A stretch of 64,000 nt of DNA, from IMG/VR virus record IMGVR_UViG_3300032254_000001, positions 96,001 through 160,000 of that record, one strand, 5' to 3'. Below the pieces are notes generated by a model that was not told the DNA's origin, made no database searches, and was given only the letters and a program-made list of their open reading frames with translations. This document shows positions 6,796 through 60,447 of the stretch, in pieces. A program made the translations under genes and the position numbers. The DNA comes from a virus (Duplodnaviria > Caudoviricetes). Positions within the stretch are counted from its first letter, which is position 1, and every line of letters starts with the position of its first letter.

Positions 6796-6971
6796 GCATT
6801 AGATATCTTACATCTAGTCCACTTTTCTTCCCACGATGCTTCTGTGAGCCATTTTGTTTCAATTATCCTGCTGCCATCTTCTTGTGAACTTTCAATAGTT
6901 AACGGAAACAACAAGAACTTTGTTACTGTCCTGTATGTTCCTAATGGCGGCTCTACTCTTTTGCGTTGCAT
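6771..6971 (-). CDS. Small hypothetical protein
   Basis: Abuts the TGT-like gene stop. Confidence 0.5.
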   Translation of the reverse strand: MQRKRVEPPLGTYRTVTKFLLFPLTIESSQEDGSRIIETKWLTEASWEEKWTRCKISNAWIKMRFV

Positions 6972-8554
6972 TAATCACCAAAGTCAAATAAGTTAGTAGC
7001 TTCTTCCGCAACTTGCGTCTTGGTTTTGCTAGGTTTCATAATTAAGTGAGCTTCTTCTGCAAGCTCTGCTTGTGCCTCATCGAGGTCAAACATAGCATCA
7101 AAGCTGGCTGCGGCATTAATAGCTTTCTTGCCACCCATACCACGCGCACCGCTGATGCCCATAAAGAACTTAGAATACATATCAAGTATTGCTAGGCGTT
7201 CTTCGTATACATTAGTTGAGAATACTGCATCTATTATATTTGTTATTGTGACACCAGTATTCTCGTCTACTAACATTTTAGGCAGACAACCACTATCGTA
7301 TTGGCGGTTCGCTTCCTGTACACTGTTAATGTGGTGCCAAACATTGTGGCCCATCATTAATGCATACGAGAAACTATCCCAAGAAGTCTTCCCTTCCTTA
7401 CCGACCTTATTAAGGTCACCTGGAGCATATACACAGACGTCTTTCATTTGTAGGTGTTCACTAATAGGACTATCTTCAAAGAGGTCGTGTATTCCATCTG
7501 CAACTGTACCATCACTGAATTTGCGTGTATCTTTTGCATACGCCTTGTTATCAGCAGTGGGGTTCATACGATATGACCATTTACCCGATTTATTCTTCTT
7601 AGTTAAGGTTCTATAGTCTGGGGTGACGGTCTCGTGATATATCTGCCCGTTGGCAGTAGCAAGGAACGGGCTTGCACAATCGAAACTAATTGTAAAGTTT
7701 GGATTATGTGTGCGTCGTACAGCTCGTTGCAATGCTGTTAGTAGTACTGCCCACTCTAGTTTACTTGTTCCTAGGAAGTGCATCCAATCCTGTTTGCCTT
7801 CTTCAAGTAAACCATCATGTATCAATGTTACTACTCTTTTAATAGCCAGGTGTGGGTCTGCCATGTTAGCACCACCCATTGCCCAACCTTTAAAATAATT
7901 TTCGTGCTTAGTTGGATCGCTGTATTCTTTCATCTCTTCGTACCAACGATCCGCATCGGAATGATTTGAACCTTGTAATACATTTAAGAACTTAGCATTG
8001 TTCGTTGCATGTTTCATAAAGTATTCGTGGTTGTATTTTGTTGCATCAACTGCATCTTGATAAGTTTTGATGTTTGTCTTTTTAACAGACTCAGCGTTGG
8101 TGCAAGTCCATGTTGGAATATCAAGTGTCATGCTGTAGTCGCTAATGTTACACAACCATTTCAGTACAGTACTTCTGTACTTCTCAGCTTTAGGACAATT
8201 AGGATCTGCCCAGTCTGCTTCCCATACGCCTTTAGCAATCTGGAAACCACCTGAGTCAGCTAGCAATAATGTATCACTGCTACGCTTACGAATCATGTTT
8301 TCCTTTGGTACGTCCTTAGTTAAATCTAAGTTAGCATGACCTGCTGAATACAATCCCCATCTGTACTTAAACAATCCGTCCTTGTTATTAAAGAAGTTCA
8401 TCATTTCCATATCCGGAATGCCTGTTGGCATACGCGAAGGTGGAACATAGTTAGGATCGTCTTGCTGTTTGCCTATGTAAGTTGAGTAAAACGAACTAAT
8501 AGCAGGTAAGAATACTGCATAATCGTTCTGTTCATTTGTTAAATTTTTATTCAT
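6971..8554 (-). CDS. dpdA: tRNA-guanine transglycosylase-fold protein, DpdA-like DNA deazaguanine transglycosylase
   Basis: DSGGFQI, TLDIP, NVLQG, GWAMGG, HFLG, SFDCASPF; no CxCxxC zinc site of tRNA TGT. Confidence 0.8.
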   Translation of the reverse strand: MNKNLTNEQNDYAVFLPAISSFYSTYIGKQQDDPNYVPPSRMPTGIPDMEMMNFFNNKDGLFKYRWGLYSAGHANLDLTKDVPKENMIRKRSSDTLLLADSGGFQIAKGVWEADWADPNCPKAEKYRSTVLKWLCNISDYSMTLDIPTWTCTNAESVKKTNIKTYQDAVDATKYNHEYFMKHATNNAKFLNVLQGSNHSDADRWYEEMKEYSDPTKHENYFKGWAMGGANMADPHLAIKRVVTLIHDGLLEEGKQDWMHFLGTSKLEWAVLLTALQRAVRRTHNPNFTISFDCASPFLATANGQIYHETVTPDYRTLTKKNKSGKWSYRMNPTADNKAYAKDTRKFSDGTVADGIHDLFEDSPISEHLQMKDVCVYAPGDLNKVGKEGKTSWDSFSYALMMGHNVWHHINSVQEANRQYDSGCLPKMLVDENTGVTITNIIDAVFSTNVYEERLAILDMYSKFFMGISGARGMGGKKAINAAASFDAMFDLDEAQAELAEEAHLIMKPSKTKTQVAEEATNLFDFGD

Positions 8555-52355: not shown

Positions 52356-53710
52356 TTATGCCAATTCTTTTTCGTACTCTTCAACATTACTTACCGCTTG
52401 CGGATAGAAGCACGAACCTTCTTTGTTCGCTACCATTATCTTAGATGCGTAGTACATCGCTTCCTTAATGATCTCACTTTCGAAATCACCAATTGGCTTA
52501 ATGTTTATAGTAGTAAACGAATTGCCAGTCACAGGATCCTTAAGGTCCGACAGAACCAACGAACCTGCGATGTAGTAACATCCGCCTAGCTCATCCATTC
52601 TCTTTAAGGCCGGGATTGCGTTCTTGTATTTCTCAACAAGTCTTACATTATGAATTAAATCTTCAGACATTATTCTGCACTCGGGTTAGTTTCTGCGGGT
52701 GCTGCTTTGCCTTTAACAATTTCTAGGCATACGGCAGCGGATTCATCATCCCAACCTTCAACTGCACATCTGGCAGCAAGTGGGTCAACTTTCTCTTTAC
52801 TAATTAATTCTTCAACTAATTTTAAGCGAGCCATTTCAGCTGTGTGCTTTGCTTCTTGCACTTCAATCTTAGCTTTTGTTGCCGCTGCTTCAGCTTTTGC
52901 TTCTTCAGGATTATAACTGTTCATGTGCATGGTGCAGGTTGTTATTGATAAAAATATAACAACAACTACCGCAGCAATTGTTCTAGTTATTAATCTGTTG
53001 AGCATAAACTCTCTTTCGTCTTTACTAATTTGTTCCATTGTTTTTCCTTATCCGCCTTTGTAGCCTTTGAGTACTGCCATAGTCAGTGATTGCTCAATAT
53101 CATCTGGCGGTATTGTGAATGTTTCATTAATGCTATCGAACTTGAACTCTCTAGATTTGTCATCTAATTCTGCGCCTGGTGTAACCGCCCAAACATTACT
53201 GTTAGTCCAACGTGAGATTCGACCGATACCAAGTGACTTACCTGGCTTAACACCAATCACCCAATCACCGCGTTGAAGTTCTTGTTTGTACTTGTTAACA
53301 GGATTTTTAATTTCTGCCTTATCGTGCTTTTTTACATTGCGGACATAATTAGTTTTATGTTCGCCTAGGAGTACTTTTGCATAGGCTTCGTTAATACGCC
53401 CTTTTTGCTTGCGACCATCTACTTCGTAAATAATCGTACCACCGTAAGTTACAAGCTTATTCGGTTCATCATTCTTGCTGTTTTTATAACGCTCGGCATG
53501 TGTTTCAACTTCAACATCAACTATCCTAGCAATAGTACCGATGGTTGCTGTGCATGTGATTTCAATATAGACATTCTTAGGAACAACAATGTCGCTAGTT
53601 TTATAAAATGTGTAAACAGTATGATTCCGACCTTGCCAGTTCCTTTTTTCTTCGGACCTGACTTTAACGCCTTCGCAACTTCGTAAGATGGCTTCCATTG
53701 CTGCTGACAT
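52356..53710 (-). CDS. Three early hypothetical CDS (52356-52670; 52670-53038 with TM anchor; 53048-53710)
   Basis: Abutting ORFs. Confidence 0.6.
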
Positions 53711-54198
53711 TAGCTTGCCTCCGAAATGTCTCTAAGGTAAGCATAAGCGACATAATACTTTGCTAACCGAGCTGCTGCCTTTGGAGCAATCGTTCCGTCT
53801 GCTAAAATGTCTTCTGGCTTCATTCTGTGGATGTCACTGTTGTGACGTAAGTCAGCCATCTTAATTGCGATAGCAATAACTGATACAGACAGCTTGCGTA
53901 CATAATCCATGTATGGCACACCCTTAAGGTGCGTCATTAGCACAACGATTTCAACTGTACGTGGGTCAAAGCCTTCATCTATTAGCTTTTGAGCAGACCA
54001 CAGTTTTGGACGGTCTTCAAGCAGATCATGAAATACTGCGGCTATCATTGCTTCGGTGCCCAAGTGAGCAACACCACGCATCACATGCAAGCAATGCTCA
54101 ATATAAGGGACACCGCCCTTATCAAATTCGCCCTCGAACGCTGCTGATGTTATTGCAATCGCTTTGTCGAGTCCTGCGTATTTCACCTTATCTGCCAT
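53710..54198 (-). CDS. HD-domain RelA/SpoT-type hydrolase (small alarmone hydrolase-like)
   Basis: PYIEHCLHV, AAVFHDLLED, IKMADLRHN. Confidence 0.8.
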   Translation of the reverse strand: MADKVKYAGLDKAIAITSAAFEGEFDKGGVPYIEHCLHVMRGVAHLGTEAMIAAVFHDLLEDRPKLWSAQKLIDEGFDPRTVEIVVLMTHLKGVPYMDYVRKLSVSVIAIAIKMADLRHNSDIHRMKPEDILADGTIAPKAAARLAKYYVAYAYLRDISEAS

Positions 54199-57200: not shown

Positions 57201-57613
57201 GACGAAAATCAATATCTGATGCTTCTGCGACAAACTCGTTGTCGTCTTTGTAGTACGTAAAACCTGTAGAGTTAATAACCATCTTATGAACACCAATAGT
57301 TTTCTGAAGCTGGGCTAGTTGAATAGTTTGCATTAATGCTTTCCTGGAACTCTTCTCCAGTCATTGCATTTTTGCGAGTAACTGTCTTTTCAATGTTCTT
57401 GTTAAACTCACCTAGTTCAGCAATTGCAAAATCTTCTTTTACATATGGTGTCTCAGTGTCATACTGGTAACCAAGCTTGCCTTTCTTGTCTAAACGTGTA
57501 AGAGCTGCTTTTGCTGCACTTTCACTTTTATAACGTTCTATGTAACATCCAACTGAGCGAGCTGGAGCACTTAGTATCTTAGTAGTTTCTTTGTTGTATA
57601 TTACGTATGGCAT
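54272..57613 (-). CDS. Run of about 12 small early hypothetical CDS (including 54713-55411, membrane protein 55665-56093, 57010-57282, 57284-57613)
   Basis: Contiguous minus-strand ORFs downstream of the promoter at 57647. Confidence 0.55.
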
Positions 57614-57646
57614 GTTCTTGCTCCTGTTTATTAACTCTATGTACTA

Positions 57647-57675
57647 ATTATATGGCTTTTTGGGCAAAAGGTCAA
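57647..57675 (-). promoter_or_regulatory. Strong early sigma70 promoter, copy 3
   Basis: TTGACC-17-TATAAT-TAGTACATAG. Confidence 0.9.
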
Positions 57676-57700
57676 CCTTTTTGTTACTTTATTTGCACTA

Positions 57701-57788
57701 TATAAATCAATGACTTACAAATTAGTTGCAAATTAATTACATTAGCAAAATCAATGACTTACGTTAGCTAGCAAAATCAATGACTTAC
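57701..57788 (+). repeat. Three IHF-consensus sites
   Basis: AAATCAATGACTTAC in motif copies starting at 57701, 57745 and 57771. Confidence 0.75.
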
Positions 57789-57832
57789 ATGCCCTACATT
57801 AACATGCACTAATTTAATGCATAAATACTACA

Positions 57833-58657
57833 ATGAACGAAGACACAAAGCAGTACATCCGGGATGCGATAACCAATGATACGCTTGAAATAAAATACCA
57901 ACCGCAATTTTCCGTGATAGAGGGCAGTGGCACCAGGGCAATATCTAACCCAGGGCAAGTTCTAGAGCGACTTAAGATATCAGGTGTCGAGGCACTAGTC
58001 CGCCCAGACACTAACGTATGTCACATTGAGACACTGCTTAAAGTAGCCGTAACATCAAATCAAATAATCGACTTAGGCTATCACATAATGAGAAAGGCTG
58101 TCGAACAACTTAAAGAGTGGATAGATGACAACGTAGTTTGTAATTCATTCTCAATGTCAGTTAATGTGTCAGCTGAGCAATTACACGATAAGCACTTTTG
58201 CGCAAATGTATGTGGTATCGTAAACGATGCAGGAATTAGTCCACACCAGCTAACAATAGAACTTACTGAGACCTCAATGATTAGCGATGTGAATGTCGCA
58301 AAGATGTACCAGCTTTCGACGCATGGTATTAATATTTCAATTGACGATTTCGGAACAGGTTACAGCTCATTGGGTAGATTAAAAATGATGCCGTTTAATG
58401 AACTTAAAATAGACAAGATGTTTATAGACGATATCGGAAAGTCGTTCGAAGACGTTGCTCTTGTTACTGCGATATATCAGTTAACTACTGCGCTTGATAA
58501 ATTTACTATTGTTGAGGGAGTAGAAAACGGAGCTCAATTTTCACTACTGCGAACAATCGGGTTTACATCTTTCCAAGGTTATTATTTTAGTGCTTCTGAG
58601 ACTGCTACGGAGATGACTGATATTCTTAGCCTAACAAACTCTTTACACTCTCAATAG
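57833..58657 (+). CDS. Stand-alone EAL-domain c-di-GMP phosphodiesterase
   Basis: YQPQ, EALVR, SVNVS, IELTE, DDFGTGYSSL, KID, EGVE, QGYYF all intact; TAAATA at 57822. Confidence 0.93.
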   Translation: MNEDTKQYIRDAITNDTLEIKYQPQFSVIEGSGTRAISNPGQVLERLKISGVEALVRPDTNVCHIETLLKVAVTSNQIIDLGYHIMRKAVEQLKEWIDDNVVCNSFSMSVNVSAEQLHDKHFCANVCGIVNDAGISPHQLTIELTETSMISDVNVAKMYQLSTHGINISIDDFGTGYSSLGRLKMMPFNELKIDKMFIDDIGKSFEDVALVTAIYQLTTALDKFTIVEGVENGAQFSLLRTIGFTSFQGYYFSASETATEMTDILSLTNSLHSQ

Positions 58658-59180
58658 TATCTAGTGTTACATTGTCAAGCTCACGTGCCCAGCTAGCTAG
58701 TTCGTGAGTGTAATCAACTAATACAAATTGAGTCATAGGATTTGTTTTTATTATTTCGCGTACATTAAAATAGTATTCTTCTCGTAGTACTCGTTCAGCT
58801 TCGTCGTCTGTGTTTAGTATAGGACTAAAATTAAAACCTGCCATTAGTACAATATCAAACTGTGGTACTGCAAGATTCATTGCAACGATGTCATCTTTGT
58901 TAACAATCGCTTCGTTCTTAAACTGACCATTGAACAACTTTACACCCAACGGGCTGCCAACTTTTGTGTAGCTTTCTTGCATGATGTGTAGAGTGCAAAC
59001 TGCATGGAATGCACGTTGGATTAAATTCTTAGCGTCAGCAGTTACCGAGCAGATACAGTTATCTGGTCTGTACTCTTTCCATGTCTTCCAACTACCCCAG
59101 GATATTGCTGTTTCTTTAATAACACTTGGATCTAGTACGCCGGTTGGAATGTCTTCGCTAATTATCCAACATACTTTCAT
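58626..59180 (-). CDS. Hypothetical protein
   Basis: 184 aa ORF. Confidence 0.6.
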   Translation of the reverse strand: MKVCWIISEDIPTGVLDPSVIKETAISWGSWKTWKEYRPDNCICSVTADAKNLIQRAFHAVCTLHIMQESYTKVGSPLGVKLFNGQFKNEAIVNKDDIVAMNLAVPQFDIVLMAGFNFSPILNTDDEAERVLREEYYFNVREIIKTNPMTQFVLVDYTHELASWARELDNVTLDTIESVKSLLG

Positions 59181-60409
59181 ATTACAGCCTTAAGAGGTAC
59201 CCAACTAAAGTCATGTAAACAATACCATGCAAAGATAGGATTGTCTAATGTCATTTGTGTGTTTAGTACTAAGTCGCCTGGTATGCCTGAATAACCCGGA
59301 ACAGATGTTCCTTGTGCTATGCTACGTGAACCTAGTTTAAGTTTCTTAATTGTTGTTACACCGCTTGTATCAATTGTTAAATCTGCACTTCGGTTAACAC
59401 CAATTACCAAATCCTGTGCTCTGTTTGTACCAAAGAATGCTGTGTTCTCTTTGAGTTTACCAGCTGTGATTTCAACTTCGTCTTCCCAAACGTCTAATGC
59501 TGCGTTTGGAGTTTTGGTATTAATACCGACACGCTTGCCTTCTACATGCAATGCATCTATTGTGGATGTGCCGGAAACTGTTAGCCCGTCTAACTTGCCT
59601 ACTGTTGTTAGAGATGACTTTGTAATTTGTCTGCCTAGTGTATCGTCCGATAATACTACATCGCCGTTGAGCTGTACTTCTTTAAAGTTTAAAACATTAA
59701 CTTGATCAATAACTCCGTCAATCATTTCCTGCTTAACTGAGTCAACAACATCAAGCTTGATACTAGATGCTAGTCCGTCCCATGCGCCGCCTGTTGTATC
59801 TACTGTGCCGTGTACAATAAGCTTGCCGCTTATCGTTGCATTCTTAGTCGCAAGCTGATCAATTACACTAACGTTTCTAGAGGTTAATGTATTTTCAACA
59901 ACAACCGCATCGTCCATAATAGTTACTTCACGTTGTGTTGCTTCATTATGAATACCTACGCCGTTGAACTCAGCTGCAAACTGCTCTGCAATTTTATCAG
60001 CAATGATTGATTCAACATCGTTGCCAATGGTAATCTTACGTACTAATTCTGTGATTGCGTGTGTTTTAAGTTGACCTAGTAATGCTGCATCGTTTTTGAT
60101 TATGTCGGTTACTGACTCAGACGTTGCATCAGCGACATTGTTAGCTACTGTGTCATTAATAACGTTAGCATCTAGTAATGTACCATCACCTTCAACTATT
60201 AACTCAGCTACCTTGCCTGCTACCTGCTCGGACATACCTTGTTTAACTACTGCATCAAGATTAAAATTACGCACTAAGAGTGAAACAGCCTGGCTTCGCA
60301 GACTTGCTATTAACTGGTCGTCGTTCTTAAAAATCTCTGTAACTTGTTCGTTAACCGCTTCTGTAACTTTACTAAGTATTGCGGCATTAATTTCATCTGA
60401 ATTGATCAT
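59177..60409 (-). CDS. Fibre-like structural protein
   Basis: Coiled N-terminus, RVGINTKTPNAALDV motif; TAAATA at 60434. Confidence 0.55.
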   Translation of the reverse strand: MINSDEINAAILSKVTEAVNEQVTEIFKNDDQLIASLRSQAVSLLVRNFNLDAVVKQGMSEQVAGKVAELIVEGDGTLLDANVINDTVANNVADATSESVTDIIKNDAALLGQLKTHAITELVRKITIGNDVESIIADKIAEQFAAEFNGVGIHNEATQREVTIMDDAVVVENTLTSRNVSVIDQLATKNATISGKLIVHGTVDTTGGAWDGLASSIKLDVVDSVKQEMIDGVIDQVNVLNFKEVQLNGDVVLSDDTLGRQITKSSLTTVGKLDGLTVSGTSTIDALHVEGKRVGINTKTPNAALDVWEDEVEITAGKLKENTAFFGTNRAQDLVIGVNRSADLTIDTSGVTTIKKLKLGSRSIAQGTSVPGYSGIPGDLVLNTQMTLDNPIFAWYCLHDFSWVPLKAVI

Positions 60410-60447
60410 GATATCTCCGGTTTCAACTTAGTGTATTTATGACTAGT

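What the first reader, a model, noticed from the sequence alone, without database searches (positions are those of the whole stretch)
57822..58657. Phage-encoded, apparently active stand-alone EAL phosphodiesterase under a late-type promoter
Seen: all EAL catalytic motifs are intact, there is no sensor or GGDEF domain, it lies on the opposite strand to its neighbours, and TAAATA sits 6 bp upstream. Established: EAL domains hydrolyse c-di-GMP, which controls biofilm, motility and some phage receptors. Inference: the phage drains c-di-GMP (biofilm dispersal, receptor shut-off for superinfection exclusion) or a related cyclic dinucleotide immune signal.
Basis: partly seen in the sequence, partly recalled or inferred. 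Interest (0 to 1): 0.7.

Follow-up and report, generated by a model that had tools for sequence, protein, structure and literature searches.

The report
Jumbo-phage stand-alone c-di-GMP phosphodiesterase gene
A 344-kb uncultured T4-related giant phage from a microbial mat carries a real, conserved, sensor-less EAL enzyme that very probably destroys the bacterial signal c-di-GMP late in infection. The same phage also encodes two enzymes that make this signal, so it appears to bring its own make-and-break set for a host lifestyle signal.

Summary
Window 57833-58657 (+) encodes a 274-aa protein that is one EAL domain and nothing else (Pfam 4.9e-51). All catalytic motifs are intact and invariant in 15 relatives. 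The AlphaFold model matches solved EAL phosphodiesterases (TM 0.84).

It is not contamination. Base composition and codon usage equal the phage's. Contig depth is the same on both sides. Position, strand and the 3' overlap with the next gene recur in every related contig examined.

The relatives form one clade of stand-alone EALs (49-60% identity) on a long stem. No bacterial EAL exceeds 41% identity.

CATAAATA lies 5 nt (not 6) before the ATG and there is no Shine-Dalgarno. Genome-wide, TAAATA-N5-ATG marks 30 ORFs against about 2 at other spacings. These include large terminase, virion proteins and a spanin, so late, probably leaderless expression is well supported, but no RNA data exist.

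New context: the phage also has two intact PAS-GGDEF cyclases. One has the same promoter layout and is conserved in a 293-kb relative. A simple "drain" model is therefore incomplete.

The same stretch was noted before in an overlapping window of this scan. Verdict: a new member of a known enzyme kind in an unusual setting; moderate interest.

The parts
57833..58657 (+). Coding sequence of the stand-alone EAL-domain protein (274 aa, stop included)
   Evidence: ORF list. Pfam EAL 4.9e-51. Sequence matches to solved EAL phosphodiesterases: DosP 3.7e-32, BifA, MorA, MucR. AlphaFold2 model pLDDT 85.2. Foldseek match to TBD1265 EAL bound to c-di-GMP, TM 0.84.
57820..57827 (+). CATAAATA, a T4-late-type promoter box, followed by a 5-nt spacer (57828-57832) and the ATG. 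No Shine-Dalgarno sequence, so the mRNA is predicted to be leaderless.
   Evidence: Sequence. Genome-wide peak of 30 TAAATA-N5-ATG ORFs. (C/G)ATAAATA-N5/6-ATG is kept in 6 distinct related loci although the rest of the spacer has diverged. The same layout precedes large terminase, two virion proteins and a spanin.
57923..57964 (+). 14-residue insertion (G31-L44) unique to this phage's EAL, in the hairpin loop between strands 1 and 2
   Evidence: Absent from all 15 clade relatives. Residues 32-42 have pLDDT under 50 in the model. No variant in the contigs of the source sample.
58626..58657 (.). 32-nt convergent overlap of the 3' end of the EAL gene with the 3' end of the minus-strand 184-aa gene
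   Evidence: The same overlap (32-44 nt) is present in L004, L006, L007 and L008. No terminator-like site on either strand between 57246 and 59400.
57647..57675 (-). Neighbouring leftward consensus sigma-70 promoter (TTGACC-17-TATAAT). It drives the minus-strand operon that starts at 57613 and is not part of the EAL unit.
   Evidence: 11 of 12 matches to consensus. Conserved in relatives.
57705..57788 (+). Three copies of AATCAATGACTTAC (57705-57718, 57749-57762, 57775-57788), which fit the IHF consensus WATCAANNNNTTR. They are assigned to the leftward early promoter, not to the EAL gene.
   Evidence: The 14-mer occurs 20 times in the genome, in clusters beside similar promoters. In relatives the first site lies 23 or 34-36 nt from the leftward -35, that is one helical turn apart. 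Its distance to the EAL TAAATA varies from 8 to more than 140 nt.
60434..60441 (-). Identical CATAAATA box, 25 nt and a GGAG before the start of the convergent 410-aa/184-aa operon
   Evidence: Sequence. It shows that the box also occurs with an ordinary leader, as expected of a promoter rather than a translation signal.

Best explanation
The gene encodes a catalytically competent, sensor-less class I EAL phosphodiesterase. It very probably hydrolyses 3'3'-c-di-GMP to linear pGpG with Mg2+ or Mn2+, as its solved relatives do. It was acquired once, long ago, by a lineage of T4-related jumbo phages and has since been inherited with the phage backbone. It is its own one-gene transcription unit on the plus strand. 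The phage's gp55-type late machinery most likely reads the CATAAATA box. By the T4 rule, that box places the transcription start on the A of the AUG, so the message would be leaderless. The enzyme would then be made together with packaging, virion and lysis proteins. In the infected cell it acts against the phage's own PAS-GGDEF cyclases, at least one of which has the same promoter layout. The phage would thus override the host's c-di-GMP network with its own make-and-break pair. The EAL, having no sensor, would be the constant sink. The PAS cyclases would be the gated source. What is shown: gene, domain, intact motifs, fold, conservation, synteny, the promoter-box statistics and the late functions that share the layout. 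What is inferred: enzymatic activity and substrate, timing, leaderless start, and any effect on host matrix, motility or receptors.
For: Enzyme: Pfam EAL 4.9e-51. All metal-binding and substrate-binding motifs are identical to active DosP and invariant across 16 clade members. The model has pLDDT 85.2 and superposes on TBD1265-EAL/c-di-GMP, BifA, MorA, MucR, PdeA and RocR at TM 0.78-0.84. dN/dS is at most 0.21 where computable.

Phage gene: the genome is a 344,483-bp record with terminal repeats and T4-type capsid and portal genes. EAL GC is 39.9% against 40.0% for the genome, and codon-usage distance lies at the median of same-size genes. Contig depth is 378.7 against 398.7 on the two sides, and one 7-kb contig joins the EAL to the downstream phage genes. 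Synteny, strand and 3' overlap are conserved in L004, L006, L007 and L008. All 5 IMG/VR contigs that carry the neighbouring gene also carry the EAL. The clade is monophyletic (SH-aLRT 100, stem 1.33).

Late expression: the TAAATA-N5-ATG peak is 30 against about 2. The class includes large terminase (1.9e-115), two virion structural proteins and an Rz-like spanin. The genome has a gp55-like sigma. The box and its spacing are kept in 6 distinct relatives.

Module: two intact PAS-GGDEF genes with RxxD and GGDEF. One lies behind TAAATA-N5-ATG in this genome and in the 293-kb relative.
Against: There is no biochemical or RNA evidence, and timing rests on a motif only. The gp55 match is weak (E 5.8e-6, 31% over 94 residues). 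A T4 gp45 homologue was not found by sequence. A cyclase and a phosphodiesterase under the same promoter class would form a futile cycle unless the PAS domain gates the cyclase, which is not shown. The clade has EALxRP where most EALs have EALxRW. Two members have K for R57. This phage alone has a 14-residue loop insertion of unknown effect. Convergent late transcription with no predicted terminator could lower expression. The host is unknown, so it is not shown that the host uses c-di-GMP at all. The phage has no PilZ receptor of its own.
Confidence: 0.7

Rival explanations
1. Anti-defence enzyme. The EAL removes 3'3'-c-di-GMP (or another cyclic dinucleotide) that a host CBASS system, such as CdnE with TIR-STING, uses as its alarm. 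This would fill the gap left by the phage's Acb1.
For: The phage carries an Acb1 homologue (Pfam Acb1 7.5e-36). Acb1 is reported not to cleave 3'3'-cGG, and Acb2 not to bind it (PMC10312549). TIR-STING effectors respond to c-di-GMP (PMC10419184). The 2021 jumbo-phage survey lists six phosphodiesterase families as counter-nucleotide defences, and EAL is not among them (PMC7824862). No EAL fold is present in the BFVD viral structure library.
Against: The phage itself encodes two intact diguanylate cyclases, which would trigger such a system. Late expression is a poor fit for blocking an alarm raised early in infection. The early promoters are TTGACC-17-TATAAT with IHF-type sites. From my own knowledge, this does not fit the Bacteroidota in which c-di-GMP STING systems were described. 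EAL enzymes are in general specific for c-di-GMP, so a broad anti-CBASS role is unlikely.
Confidence: 0.12
2. The protein is not mainly a hydrolase. It would be a c-di-GMP-binding sensor or 'trigger' protein, as degenerate or bifunctional EAL proteins such as FimX, LapD, YcgF and PdeR are, which controls a phage or host partner.
For: The clade-specific invariant residues C63 and H64 and the P58 that replaces the usual W have no assigned catalytic role. There is a conserved tight linkage with the 184-aa neighbour.
Against: Every catalytic residue and the loop-6 DFGTGYSS motif are invariant, unlike FimX, LapD or YcgF. FimX, FimX-like and YkuI structures are the weakest matches. There is no extra domain for output. 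The 184-aa neighbour belongs to viral families with hundreds of members, far wider than the EAL clade, so it is backbone and not a dedicated partner.
Confidence: 0.06
3. Active phosphodiesterase as above, but not a late gene. The TAAATA box would be a translation-start context or coincidence, and the gene would be expressed early or constitutively from another signal in the 57676-57832 spacer.
For: No transcription data exist. No RNA run is listed (this blank is no evidence either way). The spacer holds three IHF-type sites and a TATAAAT word at about 57700.
Against: No sigma-70-like plus-strand promoter was found in the spacer. The IHF-type sites keep phase with the leftward promoter, not with the EAL start. 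The same 8-mer CATAAATA also stands 25 nt before an SD-led neighbouring operon. The N5 class holds terminase, virion and lysis genes.
Confidence: 0.15
4. Host gene or assembly chimera, not a phage gene.
For: Most other EAL hits in viral-contig collections are C-terminal domains of 350-940-aa bacterial-type sensor proteins, often at contig ends. Records labelled as phage that carry EAL are largely bacterial contigs.
Against: Depth is equal on both sides and contigs join the gene to phage genes. A second microbial-mat study holds identical pieces. Composition matches the phage. Synteny is conserved in several independent metagenomes. The clade is monophyletic and separate from bacterial EALs.
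Confidence: 0.01

Closest known systems
Class I (catalytically active) EAL-domain c-di-GMP phosphodiesterases, such as TBD1265 (PDB 3n3t), P. aeruginosa BifA, MorA, MucR and RocR, and E. coli DosP/PdeO
   Same: Same Pfam family, same fold (TM 0.78-0.84) and the same full set of catalytic and loop-6 residues.
   Different: These enzymes are bacterial and nearly all are fused to sensor, GGDEF or receiver domains. This one is a bare domain, encoded by a lytic-type jumbo phage. It has at most 41% identity to any bacterial EAL, EALxRP in place of EALxRW, and a private 14-residue loop.
Stand-alone or minimal EAL proteins: PA3825-EAL, E. coli PdeL (YahA) EAL domain, V. cholerae VcEAL (PDB 6ifq)
   Same: Small EAL enzymes whose activity does not need an attached sensor. 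They match at E 1e-11 to 1e-16.
   Different: They are much more distant in sequence than the multi-domain proteobacterial EALs. PdeL carries a DNA-binding domain. None is under a phage late promoter.
Phage interference with c-di-GMP by YIP peptides of Pseudomonas phages (De Smet et al. 2021, PMC8085984)
   Same: A phage product that changes the host's c-di-GMP level during infection.
   Different: YIPs are small early peptides that bind the host cyclase YfiN and raise c-di-GMP. Here the phage brings the enzymes themselves, and the EAL would lower the level.
Phage nucleotide-signal nucleases Acb1 (2H fold) and Apyc1, and the six phosphodiesterase families listed for jumbo phages (Iyer et al. 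2021, PMC7824862)
   Same: Phage-encoded enzymes that destroy cyclic nucleotide signals. This phage also has an Acb1.
   Different: Different fold and family. EAL is not among the listed families. Acb1 does not cleave c-di-GMP. An immune role for the EAL is not supported here.
Bacteriophage T4 late promoters (TATAAATA at -13 to -6, read by gp55 with gp33 and the gp45 clamp)
   Same: The core TAAATA is at the expected distance from the predicted start. A gp55-like sigma is present. The box precedes terminase, virion and lysis genes.
   Different: The consensus here is (G/C)(A/C)TAAATA rather than TATAAATA. In about 30 genes it is fused to the start codon, so the mRNA would have no leader. gp45 was not found by sequence.

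Membership tests
EAL domain (Pfam PF00563), class I active c-di-GMP phosphodiesterase | Match to the family profile above the curated cut-off | tested here: met
   173.8 bits against a cut-off of 31.3, E 4.9e-51, residues 9-254 on profile positions 4-235 of 236.
EAL domain (Pfam PF00563), class I active c-di-GMP phosphodiesterase | Metal-binding and general-base residues: Glu of EAL, Asn, Glu of ExxE, the DD pair, the catalytic Lys, and Glu of EGVE | tested here: met
   E53, N111, E143 and E146, D171 and D172, K192, E228 and E231 are present. They align with the same residues of DosP and are invariant in 16 clade members.
EAL domain (Pfam PF00563), class I active c-di-GMP phosphodiesterase | Conserved loop 6, DFG(T/A)GYSS, needed for dimer-coupled activity | tested here: met
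   D172-F-G-T-G-Y-S-S179 is invariant.
EAL domain (Pfam PF00563), class I active c-di-GMP phosphodiesterase | Substrate-contact residues: Gln of YQP, Arg of EALxR, Gln of QGxxF | tested here: met
   Q23, R57 and Q248 are present. R57 is K in 2 of 16 relatives.
EAL domain (Pfam PF00563), class I active c-di-GMP phosphodiesterase | Modified TIM-barrel EAL fold | tested here: met
   AlphaFold2 pLDDT 85.2, pTM 0.84. Foldseek E 3e-21 and TM 0.84 to 3n3t. The 50 matches listed, out of 106 at E <= 0.001, are all EAL structures.
EAL domain (Pfam PF00563), class I active c-di-GMP phosphodiesterase | Mg2+/Mn2+-dependent hydrolysis of c-di-GMP to pGpG | not testable with these tools
   Needs purified protein and HPLC or LC-MS.
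T4-type late transcription unit | TATAAATA-like box ending 6 nt before the transcription start | tested here: inconclusive
   CATAAATA (7 of 8) is followed by N5 and the ATG. The box class is strongly enriched and conserved in relatives. The start site is not mapped.
T4-type late transcription unit | Phage late sigma (gp55) and its co-factors gp33 and gp45 | tested here: inconclusive
   A gp55-like ORF was found at E 5.8e-6. T4 gp45 gave no match. gp33 was not searched.
T4-type late transcription unit | The same signal precedes known late functions | tested here: met
   Large terminase, two virion structural proteins and an Rz-like spanin carry TAAATA-N5-ATG. The capsid gene has TAAATA 10 nt before its start and again about 75 nt upstream.
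Acb1-type anti-CBASS nuclease | 2H phosphoesterase fold with two HxT/S motifs | tested here: not met
   The protein has the EAL fold. The phage's Acb1 is a different gene at genome 33940-34458.

The most novel reading that the evidence does not exclude
The phage runs a self-contained c-di-GMP circuit late in infection. A constant sink (this sensor-less EAL) is set against PAS-gated cyclases under the same late promoter type. The c-di-GMP level of the infected mat bacterium would then follow a cue sensed by the phage (oxygen, redox or light) rather than the host's own inputs. This would time matrix shut-down, detachment or receptor loss around lysis. This would be a virus-owned second-messenger switch, not a single anti-host enzyme.
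Probability: 0.25. Interest if true: 0.7.

Novelty: new member of a known kind. Interest (0 to 1): 0.5.

Why it matters
c-di-GMP decides whether most bacteria stay in a biofilm or swim, and it controls several surface structures that phages use as receptors. Known phage interference with this signal is indirect: small peptides that bind a host cyclase.

I found no paper describing a natural lytic-phage EAL enzyme. The 2021 jumbo-phage survey of phosphodiesterases does not list EAL. The viral structure library holds no EAL fold.

A conserved phage lineage that carries both the maker and the breaker of the signal offers a compact, testable case of a virus taking over a bacterial lifestyle switch in a biofilm habitat. 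It also supplies a minimal EAL enzyme of 260-274 aa, with no sensor domain, that may be useful as a tool.

Tried and rejected
- Megablast of the region against GenBank phages gave no match.
- tblastn against that collection gave only hits of at most 35% identity. Many were bacterial contigs filed as phage.
- A single-sequence scan of IMG/VR found nothing. The alignment-based scan worked.
- RNA evidence: no RNA holder is listed for this stretch. The two runs laid are DNA contigs only, so nothing can be said on expression.
- The T4 gp45 protein search of the genome gave no match.
- A PilZ search of the genome gave no match.
- BFVD fold search gave no EAL-fold viral protein at E <= 0.001, only distant glycerophosphodiester phosphodiesterase barrels.
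- Pfam and PHROGs gave nothing for the flanking 184-, 410-, 109- and 107-aa proteins.
- The attempt to find relatives that have the neighbouring gene but lack the EAL returned only contigs that also have the EAL. Loss or gain within the wider group could therefore not be assessed.
- dS is saturated for all pairs, so dN/dS values are rough.
- The careful tree search did not finish, so the quick IQ-TREE tree is reported.
- A capsid-targeting (injected protein) reading was considered. The N-terminus shows no (L/I)xE cleavage motif and is part of the EAL fold, so I dropped it.
- Host identification was not achieved.
- I did not run a homodimer or complex prediction because no binding claim is made.

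Full report
**What is there.** The window is bases 96001-160000 of a 344,483-bp viral record with direct terminal repeats, rated complete. It encodes a T4-type major capsid protein (Pfam Gp23, 1.1e-96) and a T4-type portal (1.2e-101). It also has a gp55-like late sigma (E 5.8e-6 to T4 gp55). Public runs place it in microbial-mat metagenomes.

At 57833-58657 on the plus strand lies a 274-codon ORF. Its product matches Pfam EAL over residues 9-254 (E 4.9e-51, 173.8 bits, cut-off 31.3) and nothing else. All called genes between 52356 and 63179 except this one are on the minus strand. The box CATAAATA is at 57820-57827. Five bases (CTACA) separate it from the ATG, and no Shine-Dalgarno sequence precedes the start.

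**Is it an intact enzyme?** phmmer against PDB sequences gives 42 EAL proteins. The best are the EAL domains of DosP (3.7e-32), BifA, MorA and MucR. In the printed alignment with DosP, an active phosphodiesterase, every catalytic motif is identical:
- E53-A-L-x-R57
- N111
- E143-x-x-E146
- D171-D172-F-G-T-G-Y-S-S
- K192-x-D194
- E228-G-V-E231
- Q248-G

In an alignment of the protein with its 15 closest relatives, all of these are invariant, except that R57 is K in two. An AlphaFold2 model built on that alignment has mean pLDDT 85.2 and pTM 0.84. It superposes on TBD1265-EAL with bound c-di-GMP (3n3t) at TM 0.84, and on BifA, MorA, MucR, PdeA, RocR, YahA and PA3825. By the accepted sequence criteria for active EAL domains, which I state from my own knowledge of the family, this is a class I enzyme. 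Activity itself cannot be tested here.

This phage's protein alone carries a 14-residue insertion (G31-L44). It lies in the hairpin between the first two strands and is disordered in the model. From the barrel topology I infer that it lies on the face away from the active site.

**Is it a phage gene?** Yes, on four lines of evidence.
- Composition: gene GC is 39.9% against 40.0% for the genome. GC3 is within 0.55 sd of the gene mean. Codon-usage distance is at the median of same-size genes.
- Assembly: in the probable source run, Logan contigs break only at the repeated promoter element at about 57625-57650. Depth is 378.7 on one side and 398.7 on the other. A 7-kb contig joins the EAL gene to the downstream phage genes. 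A second mat study holds identical fragments, including two inside the gene.
- Relatives: the protein database holds 15 stand-alone EALs of 260-283 aa at 49-60% identity. The next hit drops to 41% or less, also among longer proteins.
- Synteny: the four contexts fetched (L004 from a 78-kb contig, L006 from a 185-kb contig, L007, L008) show the same layout. The EAL is on the plus strand between minus-strand genes. An HD_4 gene lies in the upstream operon in L004, L006 and L007 (faint in L007); no Pfam hit is recorded in L008. The 3' end overlaps the next gene convergently by 32-44 nt.

IMG/VR holds six contigs of this clade, including one of 293 kb. All five IMG/VR contigs that carry the neighbouring 184-aa gene also carry the EAL. 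In a quick maximum-likelihood tree of 90 sequences the 16 clade members form one group (SH-aLRT 100) on a stem of 1.33 changes per site. No bacterial sequence lies inside or next to it. dN/dS is at most 0.21 where it can be computed, with dS saturated. Of the other 26 of the 79 distinct IMG/VR loci that I inspected, 25 are C-terminal domains of 350-940-aa multi-domain ORFs of bacterial type; L073 is a 272-aa ORF cut by the contig end. PHROGs matches are likewise to 690-780-residue profiles.

**The promoter.** In this genome TAAATA followed by exactly five bases and an ATG opens 30 ORFs of at least 60 codons. Every other spacing from 0 to 30 gives 0-6. The two bases before the box are mostly G/C then A/C, so the consensus is (G/C)(A/C)TAAATA rather than T4's TATAAATA.

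Members of this class that could be named:
- large terminase (1.9e-115)
- two virion structural proteins
- an Rz-like spanin
- several homing endonucleases
- one of the phage's PAS-GGDEF genes

These are late functions. The identical 8-mer CATAAATA also stands 25 nt and a GGAG before the neighbouring 410-aa gene. The capsid gene has TAAATA boxes upstream too. The box is therefore not tied to the start codon as such, which fits a promoter.

Across six distinct related loci the spacer upstream of the EAL has diverged, but (C/G)ATAAATA is kept 5 nt (three loci) or 6 nt (three loci) before the ATG. In T4, from my own knowledge, the box occupies -13 to -6. Transcription would then begin on the A of the AUG or one base before it, giving a leaderless message. 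This agrees with earlier notes of this scan on the same genome, which I re-tested here. No RNA data exist, so the timing and the start site remain inferences.

**What the upstream repeats are.** The spacer also holds three copies of AATCAATGACTTAC. This 14-mer occurs 20 times in the genome, in clusters next to near-consensus sigma-70 promoters, and fits the IHF consensus. Here the promoter is TTGACC-17-TATAAT on the minus strand (57675-57647, 11 of 12). It drives the leftward operon. In the relatives the first repeat lies 23 or 34-36 nt from that -35 hexamer, one helical turn apart. Its distance to the EAL box varies from 8 to more than 140 nt. The repeats therefore belong to the leftward early promoter, not to the EAL gene. 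No sigma-70-like plus-strand promoter and no terminator on either strand were found around the gene. The EAL unit and the 410/184-aa operon are thus convergent late units that overlap at their 3' ends.

**The wider c-di-GMP set.** The genome has one EAL and two GGDEF genes.
- The first is a 322-aa PAS-GGDEF with RKTD-x5-GGDEF. It overlaps the start of an Acb1 homologue (Pfam Acb1 7.5e-36).
- The second is a 258-aa PAS-GGDEF with RETD-x5-GGDEF. It abuts a calcineurin-like phosphoesterase.

The first sits behind TAAATA-N5-ATG. Its orthologue in the 293-kb relative does too. No PilZ receptor gene was found in the phage. The lineage thus conserves both a maker and a breaker of c-di-GMP, apparently in the same temporal class.

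**Mechanism proposed.** The EAL has no sensor, so it would be a constant sink converting c-di-GMP to pGpG. The PAS cyclases would be the regulated source. Together they would replace the host's control of the signal late in infection. Lower c-di-GMP generally means less matrix and more motility. Some phage receptors depend on high c-di-GMP, for example the N4 glycan receptor (PMC8669472; PMC8085984). A role in release or spread from a mat, or in removing receptors around lysis, is therefore plausible, but it is not shown.

**The immune-signal alternative.** This has one real argument in its favour. Acb1 does not cleave 3'3'-cGG and Acb2 does not bind it (PMC10312549), while TIR-STING effectors respond to c-di-GMP (PMC10419184). 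Against it stand the phage's own cyclases, the late promoter, and the sigma-70/IHF-type early promoters.

**Comparison and novelty.** The protein is a member of the EAL family; all features testable here are met. What is unusual is the setting:
- it is a bare EAL domain;
- it has been vertically inherited in T4-related jumbo phages, on a long separate branch;
- it sits under a late, probably leaderless promoter;
- it is paired with phage cyclases.

I found no paper describing a natural phage EAL enzyme. The jumbo-phage survey lists six phosphodiesterase families without EAL. BFVD has no EAL fold. I rate it a new member of a known kind, interest 0.5. The same stretch was already noted in an overlapping window of this scan.

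Noticed in passing
window 57647-57788; genome-wide list: AATCAATGACTTAC (fits the IHF consensus) occurs 20 times in the genome, in clusters of 1-3 beside near-consensus TTGACC-17-TATAAT promoters. In relatives the first site is phased 23 or 34-36 nt from the -35 hexamer. It looks like a conserved early-promoter module that depends on a host DNA-bending protein.
   Followed up: partly
genome 33940-35417 (L002) and 6910-8465 (L003): Each of the two PAS-GGDEF cyclase genes is joined, by overlap or abutment, to a phosphoesterase of a different family: an Acb1 2H enzyme and a calcineurin-like metallophosphoesterase. Why a cyclase is coupled to a nucleotide-signal nuclease is unexplained.
   Followed up: partly
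window 58626-59180 (-): The 184-aa neighbour has no Pfam or PHROG match. It belongs to viral protein clusters with hundreds of members and a Rossmann-like predicted fold, with faint MptE-like and YpsA-like leads. Its 3' end overlaps the EAL gene's 3' end in every relative examined.
   Followed up: partly
window 53710-54198 (-); L004 3249-3677, L006 3788-4249, L007 66-527: An HD_4 (small alarmone hydrolase-like) gene lies in the leftward operon upstream of the EAL and is kept in the relatives. Together with the EAL, the cyclases and Acb1, the phage carries a broad nucleotide-signal toolkit.
   Followed up: partly
window 59177-60409 (-) and 60434-60441: A 410-aa protein with internal repeats and no family match lies behind a CATAAATA box with an ordinary GGAG leader. 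In relatives this position holds DUF1353, C1q/BclA-like and PTR-like genes, suggesting a fibre or decoration module.
   Followed up: no
L095 900-990 (293-kb relative): In the relative a tRNA-like sequence lies directly upstream of the PAS-GGDEF gene. The Acb1 gene that follows the cyclase in this genome is replaced there by a 272-aa protein with a signal-peptide-like N-terminus.
   Followed up: no
genome 256048-256266 and 256662-257284: Short ORFs match fragments of gp55 and of the capsid protein gp23, away from the full-length genes. This is the mini-protein array already noted by the scan.
   Followed up: no
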